From UHGV virus genome UHGV-0130101: a DNA stretch of 17,225 bases; one strand, written 5' to 3'. The position numbers are program-made. This stretch comes from a virus. This document shows positions 12,001-17,225 of this stretch, piece by piece; within the stretch, counting starts at the first letter, position 1, and each line of letters begins with the position of its first letter.

Positions 12001-15000
12001 ACGTCGTCTGCCGAAACCAACGTCGGCACCTGCTTCAGTGGAGATCGTGTTGTTTCCTCCGGATAACCGGATCCGCGATCTGGACAACTATAACAAGGCG
12101 CTGTTTGACGCCCTGACCCACGCGGGTGTGTGGGAAGACGACAGTCAGGTGAAAAGAATGCTGGTGGAGTGGGGACCGGTTATCCCGAAAGGGAAGGTCG
12201 AGATCACTATCAGTAAGTACGAGAAACCGGCGGGTGCAGCCGCCTGATTAAGAGGAGAAACGAAGTATGAATAATCTGATGGTCATTGATGGTATTGAAG
12301 TTCGTCGTGATGCTTATGGGCGTTACAGCCTGAACGATCTGCATCGCGCAGCAGTAGCATCTGGTGCAAATGCCAGAACCAAGGAGCCAGGAAAGTTTCT
12401 TTCCAGCCAACAAACTGTTGAGCTTGTTCATGAATTGACCAACACCCAGAATTTGGGTGTTGACCCGGTGAGTGTGATTCATGGGGGAAATGAACGGGGA
12501 ACGTATGTCTGCAAGGAACTGGTGTATGCCTATGCAATGTGGATCAGCCCGTCATTCCATCTGAAGGTGATCCGTACTTTCGATATGGTAACCAGCGCAC
12601 CGGAAAAATTATCCGGACAGGCTGCTGACAAGATGCAGGCTGGCGTGATCCTGCTGGACTTTATGCGCCGGGAGTTAAACCTGTCTAACTCTTCAGTGCT
12701 TGGTGCTTGTCAGAAACTCCAGGAGGCTGTTGGCTTACCGAATCTGGCACCGCGCTATGCCATTGATGCTCCTGCTGATGCACACGATGGCTCAAGTCGC
12801 CCGACACTGTCACTGAGCGCACTGCTGAAACAGTATGGTATACGCCTGACGGCTAATCAGGCATATCACCAGATGGTGAAACTGGGGATCGTCGAGCAGC
12901 GCGAACGATACAGCCGTACCGCGATTAACAACATCAAAAAATTCTGGTCGCTGACAGCGAAAGGTTGCATGTTCGGCAAGAACATCACCAGTCCCGCAAA
13001 TCCGCGCGAGACGCAGCCGCATTTCTTCGAATCCCGATTCCCTGAGCTGTTAAAGCTGCTCGATACCGTTCATTGAGGTGACCGTGAGAGCACTACTGAC
13101 CCCTGAAATTGCCCCGCGTATGGGGATCGTATTGTTCAGGCCAGGTTCAGAGCTGATGCCCCTGTTTATGCAGGGGCGTGTCCTGCTGGAGCCTGAGCCG
13201 GAGCGTTATTCATCTTTCGCCAGTGGTGCCGTTCCGGCGGCATCACAACCGCTGGCGGATGATCCTGCCGTTCGGGCCGTGTTCCGCAATGAGGCAGTGA
13301 TCCGTCGTGCTGGTGGCGTGGAATGTCTTGAAAGCTGGTTACTTCGTGAAAAAGGCTGCCAGTGGCCTCATTCCGACTGGCACAGCGAGAACATGACCAC
13401 AATGCGACACGCTCCGGGTGCAATCCGTCTGTGCTGGCACTGCGATAACCAGCTGCGCGATCAGTTCACGGAACGGCTGGAATCAATGGCAACGGATAAC
13501 TGTGCCCGCTGGGTGTTGTCTGTTGTGCGTCGGGATCTCGGTTTTGATGACAGTCACGTTGTGACAATGCCGGAACTGTGCTGGTGGCTGATTCGTAATG
13601 ATCTGGCGGATGCCTTACCGGAAAGTGCAGCCCGTAAGGCACTGAGATTACCGAAGCCTATTGTGCCGTCTGTTACCCGGGAAAGTGACCTTGTGCCTTC
13701 GGTTCCTGCCACCAGCATCATCCAGGATAAGGCGAAAAAGGTGCTGGCGCTGAAAGTGGATCCGGAGTCGCCGGAGTCTTTTATGTTACGCCCAAAACGT
13801 CGCCGCTGGGTTAATGAAAAGTACACGCGCTGGGTTAAGACACAGCCGTGTGCATGTTGTGGAAAGCCCGCTGATGATCCCCACCACCTGATAGGTCACG
13901 GTCAGGGTGGAATGGGAACAAAAGCGCATGACCTTTTTGTGTTGCCTTTGTGCAGAAAGCATCACGACGAGCTGCATGCGGATACCGTGGCATTTGAAGA
14001 GAAGTATGGCTCCCAGCTGGAGCTGATATTTCGTTTTATCGATCGTGCGCTGGCAATTGGCGTATTGGCGTAAGTGGAGAACGAGCATGAACCTTGAAGC
14101 CTTACCAAAATATTACTCCCCAAAATCTCCAAAATTGAGCGATGACGCACCGGCGACAGGCTCAGGTGGTTTAACGATTACGGATGTGATGGCTGCGCAG
14201 GGGATGGTGCAGTCGAAAGCACCGCTTGGGTTTGCCTTATTCCTGGCAAAAGTTGGTGTTCAGGATCCTCAATTTGCGATTGAAGGTCTGCTCAATTACG
14301 CGATGGCACTGGATAACCCGACATTGAACAAATTGAGTGAAGAAACCCGGTTACAGATCATCCCTTACCTTGTGAATTTTGCCTTTGCTGATTATTCCAG
14401 GTCTGCGGCAAGTAAGGCTCGCTGTGAGCATTGTGCTGGTACTGGATTTCATAATGTATTGCGCGAAGTGGTGAAACACTCCAGAAGCGGGGAATCTGTT
14501 ATCAAGGAAGAGTGGGTGAAGGAACTATGTCAGCATTGCCATGGTAAGGGAGAAGTCAGCACAGCGTGCAGAGGGTGTAAGGGTAAAGGTATTGTCCTGG
14601 ATGAAAAAAGAACCCGGCTTCATGGTGTGCCTGTTTATAAGATTTGTGGGCGTTGCAATGGCAACCGGTTTAGCCGTTTACCAACCACACTGGCGCGGCA
14701 TCATGTCCAGAAACTGGTACCGGACCTGACGGATTATCAGTGGTACAAAGGATATGCAGACGTTATTAATAAACTGGTTACAAAGTGCTGGCAGGAAGAA
14801 GCGTATGCTGAATCGCAATTGAGAAAAGTGACAAGATAGATAATTTTCGCCGAAGATGTCGACGTGATGCTTGCATTTTTCAAAAAATATGGATAAGATT
14901 TTCTCAACGATGGGCCTTGTATGTCTACCGTTGGTAAATGTCAAAAACCCGCCGTTGAGCGGGTTTTTTTGTGCCTGATGTCTCATGAAACTATGAAATG

Positions 15001-17225
15001 GATTGGTGCGTTAAACATTTTTTCTTATTATCTTTTAGATTTTGGAGAGATGGTTAACGTCTGTATTCCAGAAACTCGATGATTATTTAATAAATTAGTT
15101 TCAATGATGCTTCTAGGTTATGACTGTAATGAAAAAGGTATTAATAGCAGCGATAGGTTTTTGTTTAGTTGGTTGTGCAGGTATGAAATTACCTGAGTAT
15201 TCGCAAGTTAAAGCAAGTCCGTATTATACAGATTGCCGTGCGTTTGCCATGGATGTTTATAAAAATGATGGATACAGCAAAATTGCGAAAACTACTATCC
15301 TTAGCATGGATGATGTGAAGGCTAGATATATTGTGACAGGGTGTGTAGTTGCTATGGGGAAAAACACTGTAGAGGAAATCAAAGCTGATCTCTCTGCTAA
15401 AGGGAGTTCTTTTGGGCTTATCAGTGGAGCTTGTTCTAGCGCGGCATGTCGGGTTGATGTAGAGCAGCAAATGAACGCTTATGTACTTGGTAGTTATTAT
15501 GCTGCAAATAAAAAATTCCCGGATAAAATGAAAGCAGAGTTTTAAGTAAACCTTGTTTTCGATTATATGTCGAAGATAAATGTTAGTAACGGCATAATAA
15601 GTAAATATATAGCTGTGATAGCAACCCGCCACTGAGCGGGTTTTTTGTACCTGTAAACTTGGTGCAGTACAGTAAACACGCTGGTGGTCGTGAATACTGA
15701 CTTTTTATCTTGCTGGCTTTTTAGACAAGAGTTATTGGTATGTCATGTTAACCAGAAGGGAAAAAGACATGCTAAAACAGCAAGATATGACAGAAACCGC
15801 CGCCGCAGTCCTTCATTTCTTACCTGCTGACAAGTGGGTAACGCCACGCATGATGACGAGAACTACCGGAGTAAGCGAAGCCCGGTGCCAGTTAATACTG
15901 ACTCAGTTAGTTCTGGCGGGTCTGGCGAAGGATAACGGCGGGTACGGGAATAAATTCAGACGCTGCCAGTAATGGCGGTTTCCTGCTGTGAAAATGGGCG
16001 GCTGGTGGGTGTTGGTAGCACCTGCCAGCCATTCGCTCATGCTTACTGGTCACAAGCGAACCACGGCCCACTGCTTTAGCGCAAAAGCAGAGTGAGCCTA
16101 CCAGAGTTACGCTTACTGATCCATGAAAAATACTGTAAAAATAAACAGTGTTGATTTAATCAACGCTGATTGCCTGCATTTTATTCAGTCCCTGCCTGAT
16201 GATTCCATTGACCTGATTGTTACCGATCCGCCGTACTTCAAGGTGAAACCCAACGGCTGGGACAATCAGTGGAAAGGGGACGAAGATTACCTTAAGTGGC
16301 TGGACCACTGTCTGGCCCAGTTCTGGCGGGTGTTAAAACCTGCCGGAAGCCTTTACCTGTTCTGTGGGCATCGCCTGGCATCTGATATTGAGATCATGAT
16401 GCGTGAACGTTTCAACGTGCTTAACCATATCATCTGGGCGAAGCCGTCCGGACGTTGGAATGGGTGTAATAAAGAAAGTCTGCGCGCATATTTTCCTGCC
16501 ACAGAGCGCGTTCTGTTTGCTGAACATTACCAGGGGCCATATCGCGGCAAAAGTGACGGCTATGCGGCAAAAGAAAGGGAACTCAAACAGCACATAATGG
16601 CACCGCTGATATCGTATTTCAGGGATGCTCGTGCCGAACTGGGTATAACGGCAAAACAAATTGCCGAAGCCACAGGTAAGAAAAATATGGTTTCCCACTG
16701 GTTTGGTGCCAGTCAGTGGCAGTTGCCGAATGAGGCTGACTATCGGAAGTTACAGGCACTGTTTTCCCGTATAGCGGCAGAGAAGTTTCAGGAACAACAA
16801 CTGGAACAACCACACCACCAGCTGGTGGCATCTTATGATTCACTGAATCGCAAATATTCTGAATTGCTGGATGAGTTTAAATCTCTCCGGCGCTATTTCT
16901 CCGTATCAGTCTCCGTGCCTTATACCGATGTCTGGATGCATAAACCCGTTCAGTTCTACCCGGGTAAACATCCGTGTGAGAAACCGGCAGATATGCTCAG
17001 GCAAATAATCAATGCCAGTAGTCGACCTGGTGATCTGGTTGCTGATTTTTTTATGGGATCCGGTTCCACAATAAAAGCAGCAATGGCGCTGGGGCGTCGG
17101 GCCTTAGGTGTTGAGCTTGAGTCAGAGCGGTTTAACCAGACAGTGAAAGAGATAAACGAGCTGGTGGGGAAATAATCTGGTGGCCACGTCAGGTGGCCTT
17201 TTTATTTCCATTACACAGCACCCGC

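What the first reader, a model, noticed from the sequence alone, without database searches (positions are those of the whole stretch)
14975..15650. AT-rich lipoprotein moron inserted directly downstream of Q and the tR'-like terminator
A 141-aa lipoprotein (lipobox LVGCAG) in a visibly AT-richer island, bracketed by two strong terminators, occupies the slot between Q and the downstream late genes where lambdoid phages often carry fitness or virulence cargo. Small phage lipoproteins in other phages (for example Llp of T5 or Cor of phi80) block outer-membrane receptors to exclude superinfecting phage; others confer serum resistance. The function here is unknown.
Basis: partly seen in the sequence, partly recalled or inferred. 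Interest (0 to 1): 0.55.

Follow-up and report, generated by a model that had tools for sequence, protein, structure and literature searches.

The report
Add-on lipoprotein gene behind phage Q
A self-contained, AT-rich 677-bp add-on cassette just after the late-gene switch (Q) of an E. coli prophage encodes a conserved lipoprotein, probably outer-membrane, of unknown function; it is real and occurs in about 4% of complete E. coli genomes, including Shiga-toxin 2c phages, but it is an ordinary kind of phage accessory gene.

Summary
ORF 15120-15545 (+) encodes a 141-aa prolipoprotein (lipobox LVGC, Cys19). It lies in the lowest-GC stretch of the window (36.6% against 48.9%; GC3 0.30). Directly upstream are a PF03589 Q gene, a pR'-like promoter and a tR' hairpin.

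The second terminator (15623-15650) is a 92% direct repeat of tR', 677 nt away. Phages SfV and vB_EcoM-720R4 carry exactly the empty site, with one terminator. In 5426 complete E. coli genomes the cassette is all-or-none: 215 are filled and 269 show the empty junction.

The protein is under purifying selection (dN/dS 0.08-0.22). It belongs to a small family confined to Enterobacterales. Members sit behind three unrelated Q families, inside a tail operon, in an early region, on ~110-kb phage-like plasmids and in Serratia chromosomes. They are always AT-rich.

No Pfam, NCBIfam, PADLOC or PDB sequence match was found, and only an own-family PHROG of unknown function. The helical-bundle model gave no specific fold match.

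So it is a genuine moron encoding an orphan lipoprotein, probably outer-membrane. An Llp/Cor-like exclusion role is plausible by analogy but unsupported: the protein is not homologous, is twice the size, and is not linked to the receptor-binding domain. Function remains open.

The parts
14087..14839 (+). Q antiterminator gene (context; its product would drive read-through of both terminators). The mechanical ORF starts at GTG 14045.
   Evidence: PF03589 Antiterm E 6.9e-54, plus a DnaJ-type CXXCXGXG zinc finger. RefSeq annotates 753 nt as 'antitermination protein' in a 99.8% identical prophage.
14870..14898 (+). pR'-like late promoter, TTGCAT-17-TAAGAT (context)
   Evidence: Best sigma-70 weight-matrix hit upstream of the gene, score 10.7. 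Invariant in the window, SfV and 720R4. Assignment as pR' is by position (between Q and the first terminator) and by knowledge of lambdoid late operons.
14943..14972 (+). tR'-like intrinsic terminator; left copy of the direct repeat and left boundary of the cassette
   Evidence: Hairpin of -13.9 kcal/mol followed by T7. 24-nt direct repeat with 15623-15646. The homologous hairpin is annotated as a terminator in Ayreon and SfV. Homology with other phages ends at 14968-14973.
14973..15649 (+). The 677-bp accessory cassette (leader + lipoprotein gene + 3' UTR + second terminator copy)
   Evidence: Absent as a clean indel from SfV and vB_EcoM-720R4. The interior is present full length in 215 of 5426 E. 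coli genomes with no partial hits. The empty junction is present in 269 genomes. GC is 36.6%.
15003..15031 (+). Candidate own promoter, TTGGTG-17-TATTAT (unproven)
   Evidence: Score 9.1, no better than shuffles of the leader (P 0.6). TGGT and TTATnAT are invariant at the same place in the Salmonella and Hafnia leaders. A -10-like hexamer ends 89-95 nt before the start codon in E. coli, Salmonella and Enterobacter.
15120..15545 (+). Lipoprotein gene, 141 aa (alternative start 15129). Signal peptide and lipobox LVGC at 15165-15176; the lipid-modified Cys19 codon is 15174-15176. Mature protein is 123 aa, 13.4 kDa, pI 8.6, with four further invariant Cys (C39, C75, C105, C110).
   Evidence: dN/dS is 0.08-0.22 against homologues. 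phrog_4748 E 7.5e-91, function unknown. RefSeq WP_000217632.1 'hypothetical protein'. AlphaFold2 model has pLDDT 79 and a four/five-helix bundle.
15546..15622 (+). AT-rich 3' untranslated region of the cassette (30% GC)
15623..15650 (+). Second intrinsic terminator (t2); right copy of the direct repeat. It would insulate downstream late genes from any promoter inside the cassette.
   Evidence: Listed by the terminator scan. Hairpin of -12.0 kcal/mol plus T6. Homology with cdtI, PhiR40_1, mEp460_4F5 and others starts exactly at 15623.

Best explanation
**What it is (about 0.9).** It is an autonomous accessory cassette, a 'moron', lodged in the late operon of an mEp460/SfV-like lambdoid prophage. 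It sits between tR' and a duplicated copy of tR'.

**What it encodes (about 0.85).** It encodes a prolipoprotein. The Lgt/LspA/Lnt pathway should process it. [quoted passage not shown] A tether of about 10-15 residues would hold a disulfide-stabilised helical domain at the periplasmic face.

**Expression (inferred).**
- After induction, RNA polymerase starting at pR' and modified by Q reads through tR' and t2. The protein is then made with the late genes.
- A weak promoter in the AT-rich leader probably also gives expression in the lysogen. In that case t2 would stop that transcription before the methylase and lysis genes.

**Mechanism (about 0.35, by analogy only).** The protein binds an envelope component from the periplasmic side. 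This protects the lysogen, or the infected cell and its debris, against incoming phage. It could do so by altering an outer-membrane receptor, as Llp and Rtp45 do, or by blocking a step of genome delivery through the periplasm.
For: **Cassette status.**
- Exact indel against SfV and 720R4.
- 215 filled and 269 empty sites among 5426 E. coli genomes, with no partial copies.
- Lowest-GC window of the 17 kb. Every homologue is AT-rich relative to its flanks, including those in 58%-GC Serratia.
- A direct repeat of the resident tR' region also flanks the homologous cassette in Hafnia (80 nt, 94%) and weakly in Salmonella.

**A real protein.**
- dN/dS is 0.08-0.22 with synonymous sites saturated.
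- The antisense ORF is not conserved.

**Lipoprotein.**
- Lipobox-like motifs with Gly-Cys at -1/+1, and no Asp at +2, in the eight family members scanned. P0015 reads LSGC followed by Val.
- Four invariant Cys in the mature part.

**Carried by mobile elements at many positions.**
- Behind three different Q families: PF03589, PF06576/PF06530 and PF06323.
- Between the tape-measure gene and gpM in Enterobacter.
- Next to a divergent VapBC pair in a RecE (Exonuclease VIII) / KilR-bearing prophage-like early region.
- On ~110-kb phage-like plasmids.

This pattern is typical of host-protective or conversion genes rather than core phage functions.

**Precedent.** Small lipoproteins anchored in the inner leaflet of the outer membrane exclude phages by binding receptors from the periplasm: Llp-FhuA (PMC9586334) and Rtp45-LptDE (PMC12685063).
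Against: - No homology or specific fold similarity to any exclusion protein.
- The mature domain is about twice the size of Llp or Rtp45, and is helical.
- The gene is not adjacent to the receptor-binding protein gene in E. coli. It is not co-inherited with the J C-terminal domain.
- Copies in Serratia chromosomes lie outside prophages. The benefit therefore need not concern the carrier phage's own receptor.
- An own promoter is not statistically supported.
- No expression or phenotype data were found.
Confidence: 0.35

Rival explanations
1. It is a lysogenic-conversion or host-fitness factor acting on the host envelope rather than on phages. Examples would be resistance to serum or complement, bile or antimicrobial peptides, or altered outer-membrane properties, in the way Bor/Iss lipoproteins are reported to work.
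For: - Stand-alone, non-prophage copies in Serratia chromosomes.
- Present in diverse human, animal and environmental E. coli, and in Stx2c and Stx2k phages.
- No linkage to a particular receptor-binding domain.
- Sits in the slot where lambdoid phages carry conversion genes such as stx.
Against: - No match to the Bor Pfam family or any virulence family.
- Nothing in the sequence points to a surface-exposed protein. The signals read here predict a periplasm-facing location.
- The family is carried overwhelmingly by phages and phage-like plasmids.
Confidence: 0.2
2. It is an orphan immunity-type protein that neutralises a periplasm-acting toxin or enzyme. Targets could be a type VI secretion amidase or muramidase, a bacteriocin, or a phage tail lysozyme, as the T4 Spackle protein does.
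For: - A small, disulfide-bonded, periplasmic helical protein fits the general look of such inhibitors. This is the author's own knowledge, not a test.
- The Edwardsiella plasmid copy lies in a region rich in toxin/antitoxin and deaminase-toxin genes.
- The family is patchy, AT-rich and mobile.
Against: - No cognate toxin gene is adjacent in most contexts.
Confidence: 0.15
3. It is a late phage function proper. Made only from the Q-antiterminated transcript, it would tune lysis or prepare the envelope for release.
For: - Lies directly behind Q/pR'/tR' in three lineages with unrelated Q proteins, and just before holin genes in Salmonella.
- An own promoter is not demonstrable.
Against: - Dispensable: SfV, 720R4 and 269 E. 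coli genomes have the empty site with the same Q and lysis genes.
- Associated lysis cassettes differ.
- Other homologues lie in early regions, replication regions of phage-like plasmids, or bacterial chromosomes, where no late transcript exists.
Confidence: 0.1
4. It is not a functional gene but a chance ORF in AT-rich junk DNA between two terminators.
For: It is annotated only as 'hypothetical protein' and has no characterised homologue.
Against: - dN/dS is 0.08-0.22 over saturated synonymous divergence.
- 24 invariant columns, including the four Cys of the mature protein, across 10 sequences down to 28% identity.
- 37 clusters in several genera.
Confidence: 0.02

Closest known systems
Superinfection-exclusion lipoproteins Llp (phage T5) and Rtp45 (phage Rtp); also Cor of phi80/N15/HK022
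   Same: [quoted passage not shown] They act from the periplasmic side on an outer-membrane protein (PMC9586334, PMC12685063). The protein here has the same predicted address and a short tether.
   Different: - No sequence or specific fold similarity.
- The mature protein is 13.4 kDa, helical and has four Cys, against about 6-7 kDa.
- Those genes lie beside the receptor-binding protein gene and match its specificity. This one lies behind Q and does not track the J receptor-binding domain.
- No phenotype is known.
Classical lambdoid morons (lambda bor and lom, HK97 gene 15; Juhala/Hendrix concept, reviewed in PMC3594210)
   Same: Extra DNA absent from close relatives, with atypical composition and its own terminator, inserted in a late operon whose antiterminated polymerase ignores that terminator.
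   Different: - An own promoter is not demonstrated.
- The cassette is bounded by a direct repeat of the resident tR' terminator, in E. coli and (80 nt) in Hafnia. To my knowledge this is not part of the usual description.
Bor/Iss lipoproteins
   Same: A prophage-encoded small lipoprotein near the late/lysis region.
   Different: No hit to the Bor Pfam family. The predicted fold and the position differ: lambda bor lies after Rz on the other strand (own knowledge).
phrog_4748 / RefSeq WP_000217632.1
   Same: This is the family itself: full-length match at E 7.5e-91, and identical or near-identical proteins on at least 1000 contigs.
   Different: These are database clusters only. No function is recorded and no paper was found.

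Membership tests
Moron (accessory transcription unit in a phage genome) | Extra DNA absent from otherwise collinear relatives | tested here: met
   SfV and 720R4 lack exactly the 677 bp between the terminator copies. 215 E. coli genomes are filled and 269 are empty.
Moron (accessory transcription unit in a phage genome) | Nucleotide composition unlike the surrounding phage genes | tested here: met
   36.6% against 48.9% GC, GC3 0.30, the lowest 677-nt window. The same holds in all homologous loci.
Moron (accessory transcription unit in a phage genome) | Own terminator downstream | tested here: met
   t2 at 15623-15650. Terminators also follow the gene in Salmonella, Hafnia, S. diarizonae and Serratia.
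Moron (accessory transcription unit in a phage genome) | Own promoter, with expression from the repressed prophage | tested here: inconclusive
   TTGGTG-17-TATTAT scores no better than shuffles. Its elements are invariant in three diverged leaders. Copies in non-operon contexts must have some promoter. Expression itself cannot be tested with these tools.
Bacterial lipoprotein sorted to the outer membrane | Signal peptide ending in a lipobox [LVI][ASTVI][GAS]C | tested here: met
   KK n-region, hydrophobic core, LVGC. Motifs with Gly-Cys at -1/+1 were found in the eight family members scanned, with the first two positions varying: LVGC, IVGC, MVGC, MAGC and STGC. P0015 reads LSGC.
Bacterial lipoprotein sorted to the outer membrane | No Asp at +2 (the Lol-avoidance signal) | tested here: met
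   +2 is Ala in seven and Ser in one of the eight members scanned, and Val in P0015. Sorting is an inference from the +2 rule. Acylation and localisation are not testable here.
Llp / Rtp45 / Cor exclusion lipoproteins | Sequence or fold relationship to a family member | tested here: not met
   No Pfam hit at E 0.1 or below. PHROGs gave only the protein's own family phrog_4748, plus weak hits at E 0.002-0.1 to families of unknown function. PADLOC and PDB sequence searches gave nothing. No specific fold match.
Llp / Rtp45 / Cor exclusion lipoproteins | Gene adjacent to, and co-inherited with, the receptor-binding protein gene | tested here: not met
   The gene lies behind Q. In mEp460 the lipoprotein gene is at 40019-40435 and J is at 14944-18357 of a 44.5-kb genome. 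The cassette occurs with two different J C-terminal domains, and most phages with the mEp460-type domain lack it. Partial exception: the Enterobacter homologue sits between the tape-measure gene and gpM.
Llp / Rtp45 / Cor exclusion lipoproteins | Blocks adsorption or infection through a defined outer-membrane receptor | not testable with these tools
   Needs plating and adsorption assays.
Bor / Iss serum-resistance lipoproteins | Membership of the Bor family by sequence | tested here: not met
   No Pfam family at E 0.1 or below for the query, and none at E 1 or below shared by family members.
Outer-membrane spanin subunit (Rz1-type) | Short Pro-rich lipoprotein encoded within or next to the Rz gene of the lysis cassette | tested here: not met
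   The gene is separated from the lysis genes by the 75-aa ORF and the methylase. Relatives have their own Rz-type lysis genes downstream. The protein is a 123-aa helical domain.

The most novel reading that the evidence does not exclude
**Protein.** The protein founds a new class of periplasm-facing, outer-membrane-anchored helical lipoproteins. This class would give broad protection independent of the carrier phage's own receptor, for example by blocking genome delivery or a tail enzyme, or by neutralising periplasm-acting toxins.

**Cassette.** Its cassette spreads among lambdoid phages with unrelated Q proteins by recombination at the tR' terminator. That leaves the terminator duplicated on both sides, and the duplicate doubles as an insulator protecting the lysis genes.
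Probability: 0.15. Interest if true: 0.6.

Novelty: new member of a known kind. Interest (0 to 1): 0.35.

Why it matters
- The gene is common. It is in about 4% of complete E. coli genomes and in Stx2c and Stx2k converting phages, where it lies on the transcription path from pR' to the toxin genes. It is conserved under purifying selection across Enterobacterales and has no assigned function.
- If it excludes phages or alters the envelope, it bears on phage therapy host range, on the spread of Stx phages, and on how prophages remodel the outer membrane.
- The terminator-duplication architecture recurs behind unrelated Q genes. It is a small but concrete clue to how accessory genes are slotted into antiterminated operons without switching on lysis genes in the lysogen.
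- The kind of element is nevertheless well known, and nothing found here would greatly surprise a phage biologist.

Tried and rejected
1. **Published sRNA-17 lead.** sRNA-17 of E. coli K1 lies in an mEp460-like prophage (PMC7719688). Its primers and probe map to window 6102-6215, about 9 kb away, so it is unrelated. The RS218 record was not in the collection.
2. **Small ORF in the leader** (14978-15082, annotated in Ayreon and phiSTEC1575). It is not conserved in the Salmonella leader, so it was rejected as coding.
3. **Antisense 147-aa ORF 15189-15632.** The longest stop-free antisense run varies from 56 to 136 aa among homologues. It is a shadow ORF.
4. **Rfam.** Only sub-threshold hits to attenuator leaders and sRNAs, centred on the terminator hairpins.
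5. **Remote homology.** An exhaustive profile search of 1.8 billion representatives found 8 proteins, all family members. An iterated search found 37 clusters, all 'hypothetical'. PDB sequence and profile searches gave nothing meaningful. Pfam on all members gave only noise.
7. **Promoter weight-matrix scans** of nine homologous leaders. None exceeded shuffles.
8. **Linkage to the J receptor-binding domain.** Rejected.
9. **Conserved-neighbour search.** A second small lipoprotein (phrog_7666) follows the gene only in the plasmid-borne lineage. [quoted passage not shown]
10. **Literature searches** by accession, locus tag and keywords found nothing on this protein.
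Full report
**1. The observation**

The window is the early-right and late-switch region of a lambdoid prophage. A 99.8% identical E. coli prophage is annotated, in order, as:
- Rha, a helix-turn-helix replication-type protein, PerC/YfdN and an N6-adenine methylase;
- a LexA-like protein, RusA, KilA-N, DUF968 and an antitermination protein;
- a hypothetical protein (WP_000217632.1), another hypothetical protein and a DNA methyltransferase;
- then EssD/RrrD lysis genes and terminase.

The ORF at 15120-15545 (+) encodes 141 aa and begins MTVMKKVLIAAIGFCLVGC|AGMK. 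It has a basic n-region, a hydrophobic core and the lipobox LVGC. The start could also be M4 at 15129, as annotated in mEp460.

The gene upstream is a Q antiterminator of Pfam family PF03589 (E 7e-54).

The hairpins at 14943-14972 and 15623-15650 fold at -13.9 and -12.0 kcal/mol, and T runs follow both. The simple scan listed only the second. The A run before the first hairpin can pair with its T run, which probably hid it. The homologous hairpins are annotated as terminators in Ayreon and SfV.

The cassette has 36.6% GC against 48.9% for the rest of the window. It is essentially the lowest 677-nt window of the 17 kb. GC3 is 0.30 against 0.45-0.55 in neighbouring genes.

**2. A discrete cassette bounded by a duplicated terminator**

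The two hairpins are a 24-nt direct repeat, 92% identical, with starts 677 nt apart.

Phages SfV and vB_EcoM-720R4 share the Q gene, the TTGCAT-17-TAAGAT promoter and the downstream 75-aa ORF and methylase. They have a single hairpin and lack exactly the intervening 677 bp.

In other phages, similarity to the window either stops at 14968-14973 or starts at 15623. The terminator is therefore a recurrent recombination joint.

Among 5426 complete E. coli genomes:
- The interior of the cassette occurs in 215, always full length and at least 95% identical, and only on chromosomes.
- The empty junction is covered at 80% or more in 269 genomes.

The filled form also occurs in phages mEp460, Ayreon and PhiR47_1, in fifteen Stx2c-converting phages and in phiSTEC1575-Stx2k. 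In the Stx2k phage it lies between Q and the tRNA-stx2 region.

**3. A real, conserved protein of a small orphan family**

- Pairwise dN/dS against homologues of 54-76% identity is 0.08-0.22, with synonymous sites near saturation.
- The long antisense ORF is not conserved.
- The mature protein is 123 aa, 13.4 kDa, with pI 8.6.
- In an alignment reaching 28% identity, 24 columns are invariant. These include Cys39, Cys75, Cys105 and Cys110. Two disulfides are a reasonable inference for a periplasmic protein.
- A lipobox-like motif with Gly-Cys at -1/+1 was found in the eight family members scanned. Residue +2 is Ala in seven and Ser in one. The distant relative P0015 reads LSGC followed by Val. 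Under the established +2 rule this predicts Lol-dependent delivery to the outer membrane. This is inference.
- AlphaFold2 with the family alignment gives a helical bundle: pLDDT 79, pTM 0.75, helices at 36-48, 65-79, 84-103 and 108-132.

Searches for relatives gave the following:
- Foldseek against PDB and against viral structures gave nothing with E below 1e-3.
- Pfam, NCBIfam, PADLOC and PDB sequence searches found nothing.
- PHROGs returned only the protein's own family, phrog_4748, of unknown function.
- An exhaustive profile search of 1.8 billion representatives found eight proteins, all from this family.
- An iterated search found 37 clusters, all from Enterobacterales and all unnamed. 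The named genera are Escherichia, Salmonella, Citrobacter, Klebsiella, Enterobacter, Hafnia, Edwardsiella, Serratia and Buttiauxella.

**4. Where the family lives**

| Host / locus | Position of the homologue |
|---|---|
| E. coli (window) | Behind a PF03589 Q |
| Salmonella | Behind a Q of a different family (PF06576/PF06530), directly before the holins |
| Hafnia alvei | Behind a third Q family (PF06323) |
| Enterobacter bugandensis | Between the tape-measure gene and gpM |
| S. enterica subsp. diarizonae (L012/L013) and an untitled NCBI assembly (L009) | Next to a divergent VapBC pair in a RecE (Exonuclease VIII) / KilR-bearing prophage-like early region |
| Klebsiella (~110-kb contigs), Buttiauxella (111.5-kb plasmid); Edwardsiella (84-88-kb records without those replication genes) | Between DNA polymerase III alpha and gp32 genes in Klebsiella and Buttiauxella; in all three followed at once by a second small lipoprotein (phrog_7666, unknown function) |
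| Three Serratia species | Chromosomal and not in a prophage, e.g. after an emrAB-like operon and before trxC |

Everywhere the gene is AT-rich relative to its flanks: 39-45% against 46-58%.

In Hafnia the 830-bp cassette is flanked by an 80-nt direct repeat (94%) that includes the resident terminator. In Salmonella a weaker 23-nt repeat is present. The terminator-duplication architecture is therefore not peculiar to E. coli.

**5. Expression**

Shown by anatomy: the gene lies downstream of pR' and tR' and upstream of the late genes.

Inferred from established knowledge of Q proteins: Q-modified polymerase reads through intrinsic terminators. After induction the gene should therefore be transcribed with the late operon.

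Whether it is also expressed in the lysogen is open.
- The best candidate promoter in the 147-nt leader is TTGGTG-17-TATTAT at 15003-15031. Its score is no better than shuffled leaders give, and the same is true for eight homologous leaders.
- In its favour, TGGT and TTATnAT are invariant at the same position in the diverged E. coli, Salmonella and Hafnia leaders.
- A -10-like hexamer ends 89-95 nt before the start codon in three loci.
- Copies outside any operon (Serratia, and those beside VapBC) must be transcribed on their own.
- A second terminator immediately after the gene makes functional sense mainly if transcription starts inside the cassette. It would shield the methylase and lysis genes. 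This is inference.

**6. Function**

Nothing ties the protein to a known activity, so the mechanism rests on address, carriers and precedent.
- **Address:** the periplasmic face of the outer membrane, on a short tether.
- **Carriers:** temperate phages and phage-like plasmids, at many positions, dispensable, with some chromosomal copies.
- **Precedent:** Llp of T5 and Rtp45 of Rtp are lipoproteins of the inner leaflet of the outer membrane. They bind FhuA or LptDE from the periplasm and change the extracellular loops so that the phage cannot bind (PMC9586334, PMC12685063).

On that basis the most likely reading is an envelope-level protective factor, most probably against incoming phage. I put this at about 0.35.

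Several results argue against simple membership of that group:
- There is no sequence or specific fold similarity.
- The mature protein is twice the size and helical.
- The gene is not beside the receptor-binding protein gene.
- The cassette does not follow the J C-terminal domain. mEp460, Stx2c and Stx2k phages share one domain (94-96% identity), but PhiR47_1 carries the cassette with a different one (41%). That same domain occurs in many phages without the cassette, such as cdtI, ev243 and the Stx1a/Stx2a phages.

Rivals, with rough weights:
- A host-fitness or virulence factor of the Bor type: 0.2.
- An orphan immunity-like inhibitor of a periplasm-acting enzyme or toxin: 0.15.
- A true late or lysis function: 0.1. 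This is weakened by dispensability and by non-late contexts.
- A non-functional ORF: refuted by the conservation pattern.

**7. Comparison and novelty**

The element meets three of four defining features of a moron: indel, composition and terminator. The fourth, an own promoter, is undecided. It is not a member of the Llp/Rtp45/Cor, Bor or spanin families.

The sequence is already in databases as a hypothetical protein and as phrog_4748. No paper on it was found.

It is best filed as a new, uncharacterised member of a known kind: a phage accessory lipoprotein cassette. The modestly new points are:
- its exact boundaries;
- the recurring duplication of the resident tR';
- the family's spread across three Q families, tail operons, phage-like plasmids and Serratia chromosomes.

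Interest is moderate to low (0.35). It is a good, well-defined candidate for a simple exclusion or envelope screen, but it is not surprising.

Noticed in passing
window 6102-6215 (about 6100-6295): The published ArcA-modulated sRNA-17 of E. coli K1 RS218 (PMC7719688) maps here. Its 'full length' forward primer matches 6102-6133 exactly and its Northern probe matches 6184-6215 exactly. The locus overlaps ORFs 5601-6149 (-) and 6221-6553 (+). The paper had removed 'hypothetical' genes before calling the region intergenic.
   Followed up: partly
window 14968-14973 and 15623; loci L004, L005, L006: The tR' hairpin is a recombination joint between modules. Similarity to many phages ends at the hairpin (Lys8385Vzw, 2H10, Tritos, HannyBb and others). 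Similarity to others (cdtI, PhiR40_1, mEp460_4F5), which have a different Q region, begins exactly at the second copy.
   Followed up: partly
L022 4718-4797 and 5548-5627 (Hafnia alvei prophage): The homologous lipoprotein cassette behind an unrelated Q (PF06323) is flanked by an 80-nt direct repeat (94%) that includes the terminator. How such duplications arise is unexplained. Insertion with target duplication, a circular intermediate integrating by homology, or selection for an insulator are all possible.
   Followed up: partly
L008 5446-5745; L020 5430-5729; L025 5466-5765: In Klebsiella and Buttiauxella ~110-kb phage-like plasmids and Edwardsiella plasmids, the family member is followed within 10 nt by a second small lipoprotein. 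It is 99 aa, has lipobox LSGC and belongs to phrog_7666 (function unknown). [quoted passage not shown]
   Followed up: partly
L017-L019 (Serratia chromosomes), gene at about 4001-4440: Stand-alone chromosomal homologues (55-62% identity) lie outside prophages. In two species the gene sits between an emrAB-like efflux operon and trxC. It is AT-rich (42-45%) in a 57-58% GC background.
   Followed up: partly
window 15745-15972 (+): A 75-aa ORF (phrog_331, unknown function) with a weak MarR/TrmB-like winged-helix signal. It is present in both filled and empty sites, so it is independent of the lipoprotein cassette.
   Followed up: no
window 16123-17175 (+), terminator 17182-17203: An N6/N4 DNA methyltransferase (PF01555) that matches the PADLOC type II methylase model PDLC03265 over its whole length, with a weak helix-turn-helix signal in the middle. 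No restriction partner gene is listed next to it in the annotated relatives. It is a second occupant of the Q-to-lysis slot.
   Followed up: no
window 14902-14972 (+): The short pR'-to-tR' transcript region (about 65-70 nt) gives sub-threshold Rfam hits to Trp and Leu attenuator leaders (E 0.03-0.05). This is probably only hairpin resemblance. It is the counterpart of the short terminated late-promoter RNAs of other lambdoid phages.
   Followed up: no
window 15250-15223 (-): The best promoter-like match of the region (ATGGCA-16-TATAAT, 10 of 12) is antisense, inside the lipoprotein CDS. It may be a spurious intragenic promoter of the kind common in AT-rich acquired DNA.
   Followed up: no
L012/L013 3599-4736: In S. 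enterica subsp. diarizonae the homologue sits beside a VapBC pair and a small protein with a weak TolA-domain hit. The region looks like an accessory or defence gene cluster.
   Followed up: no
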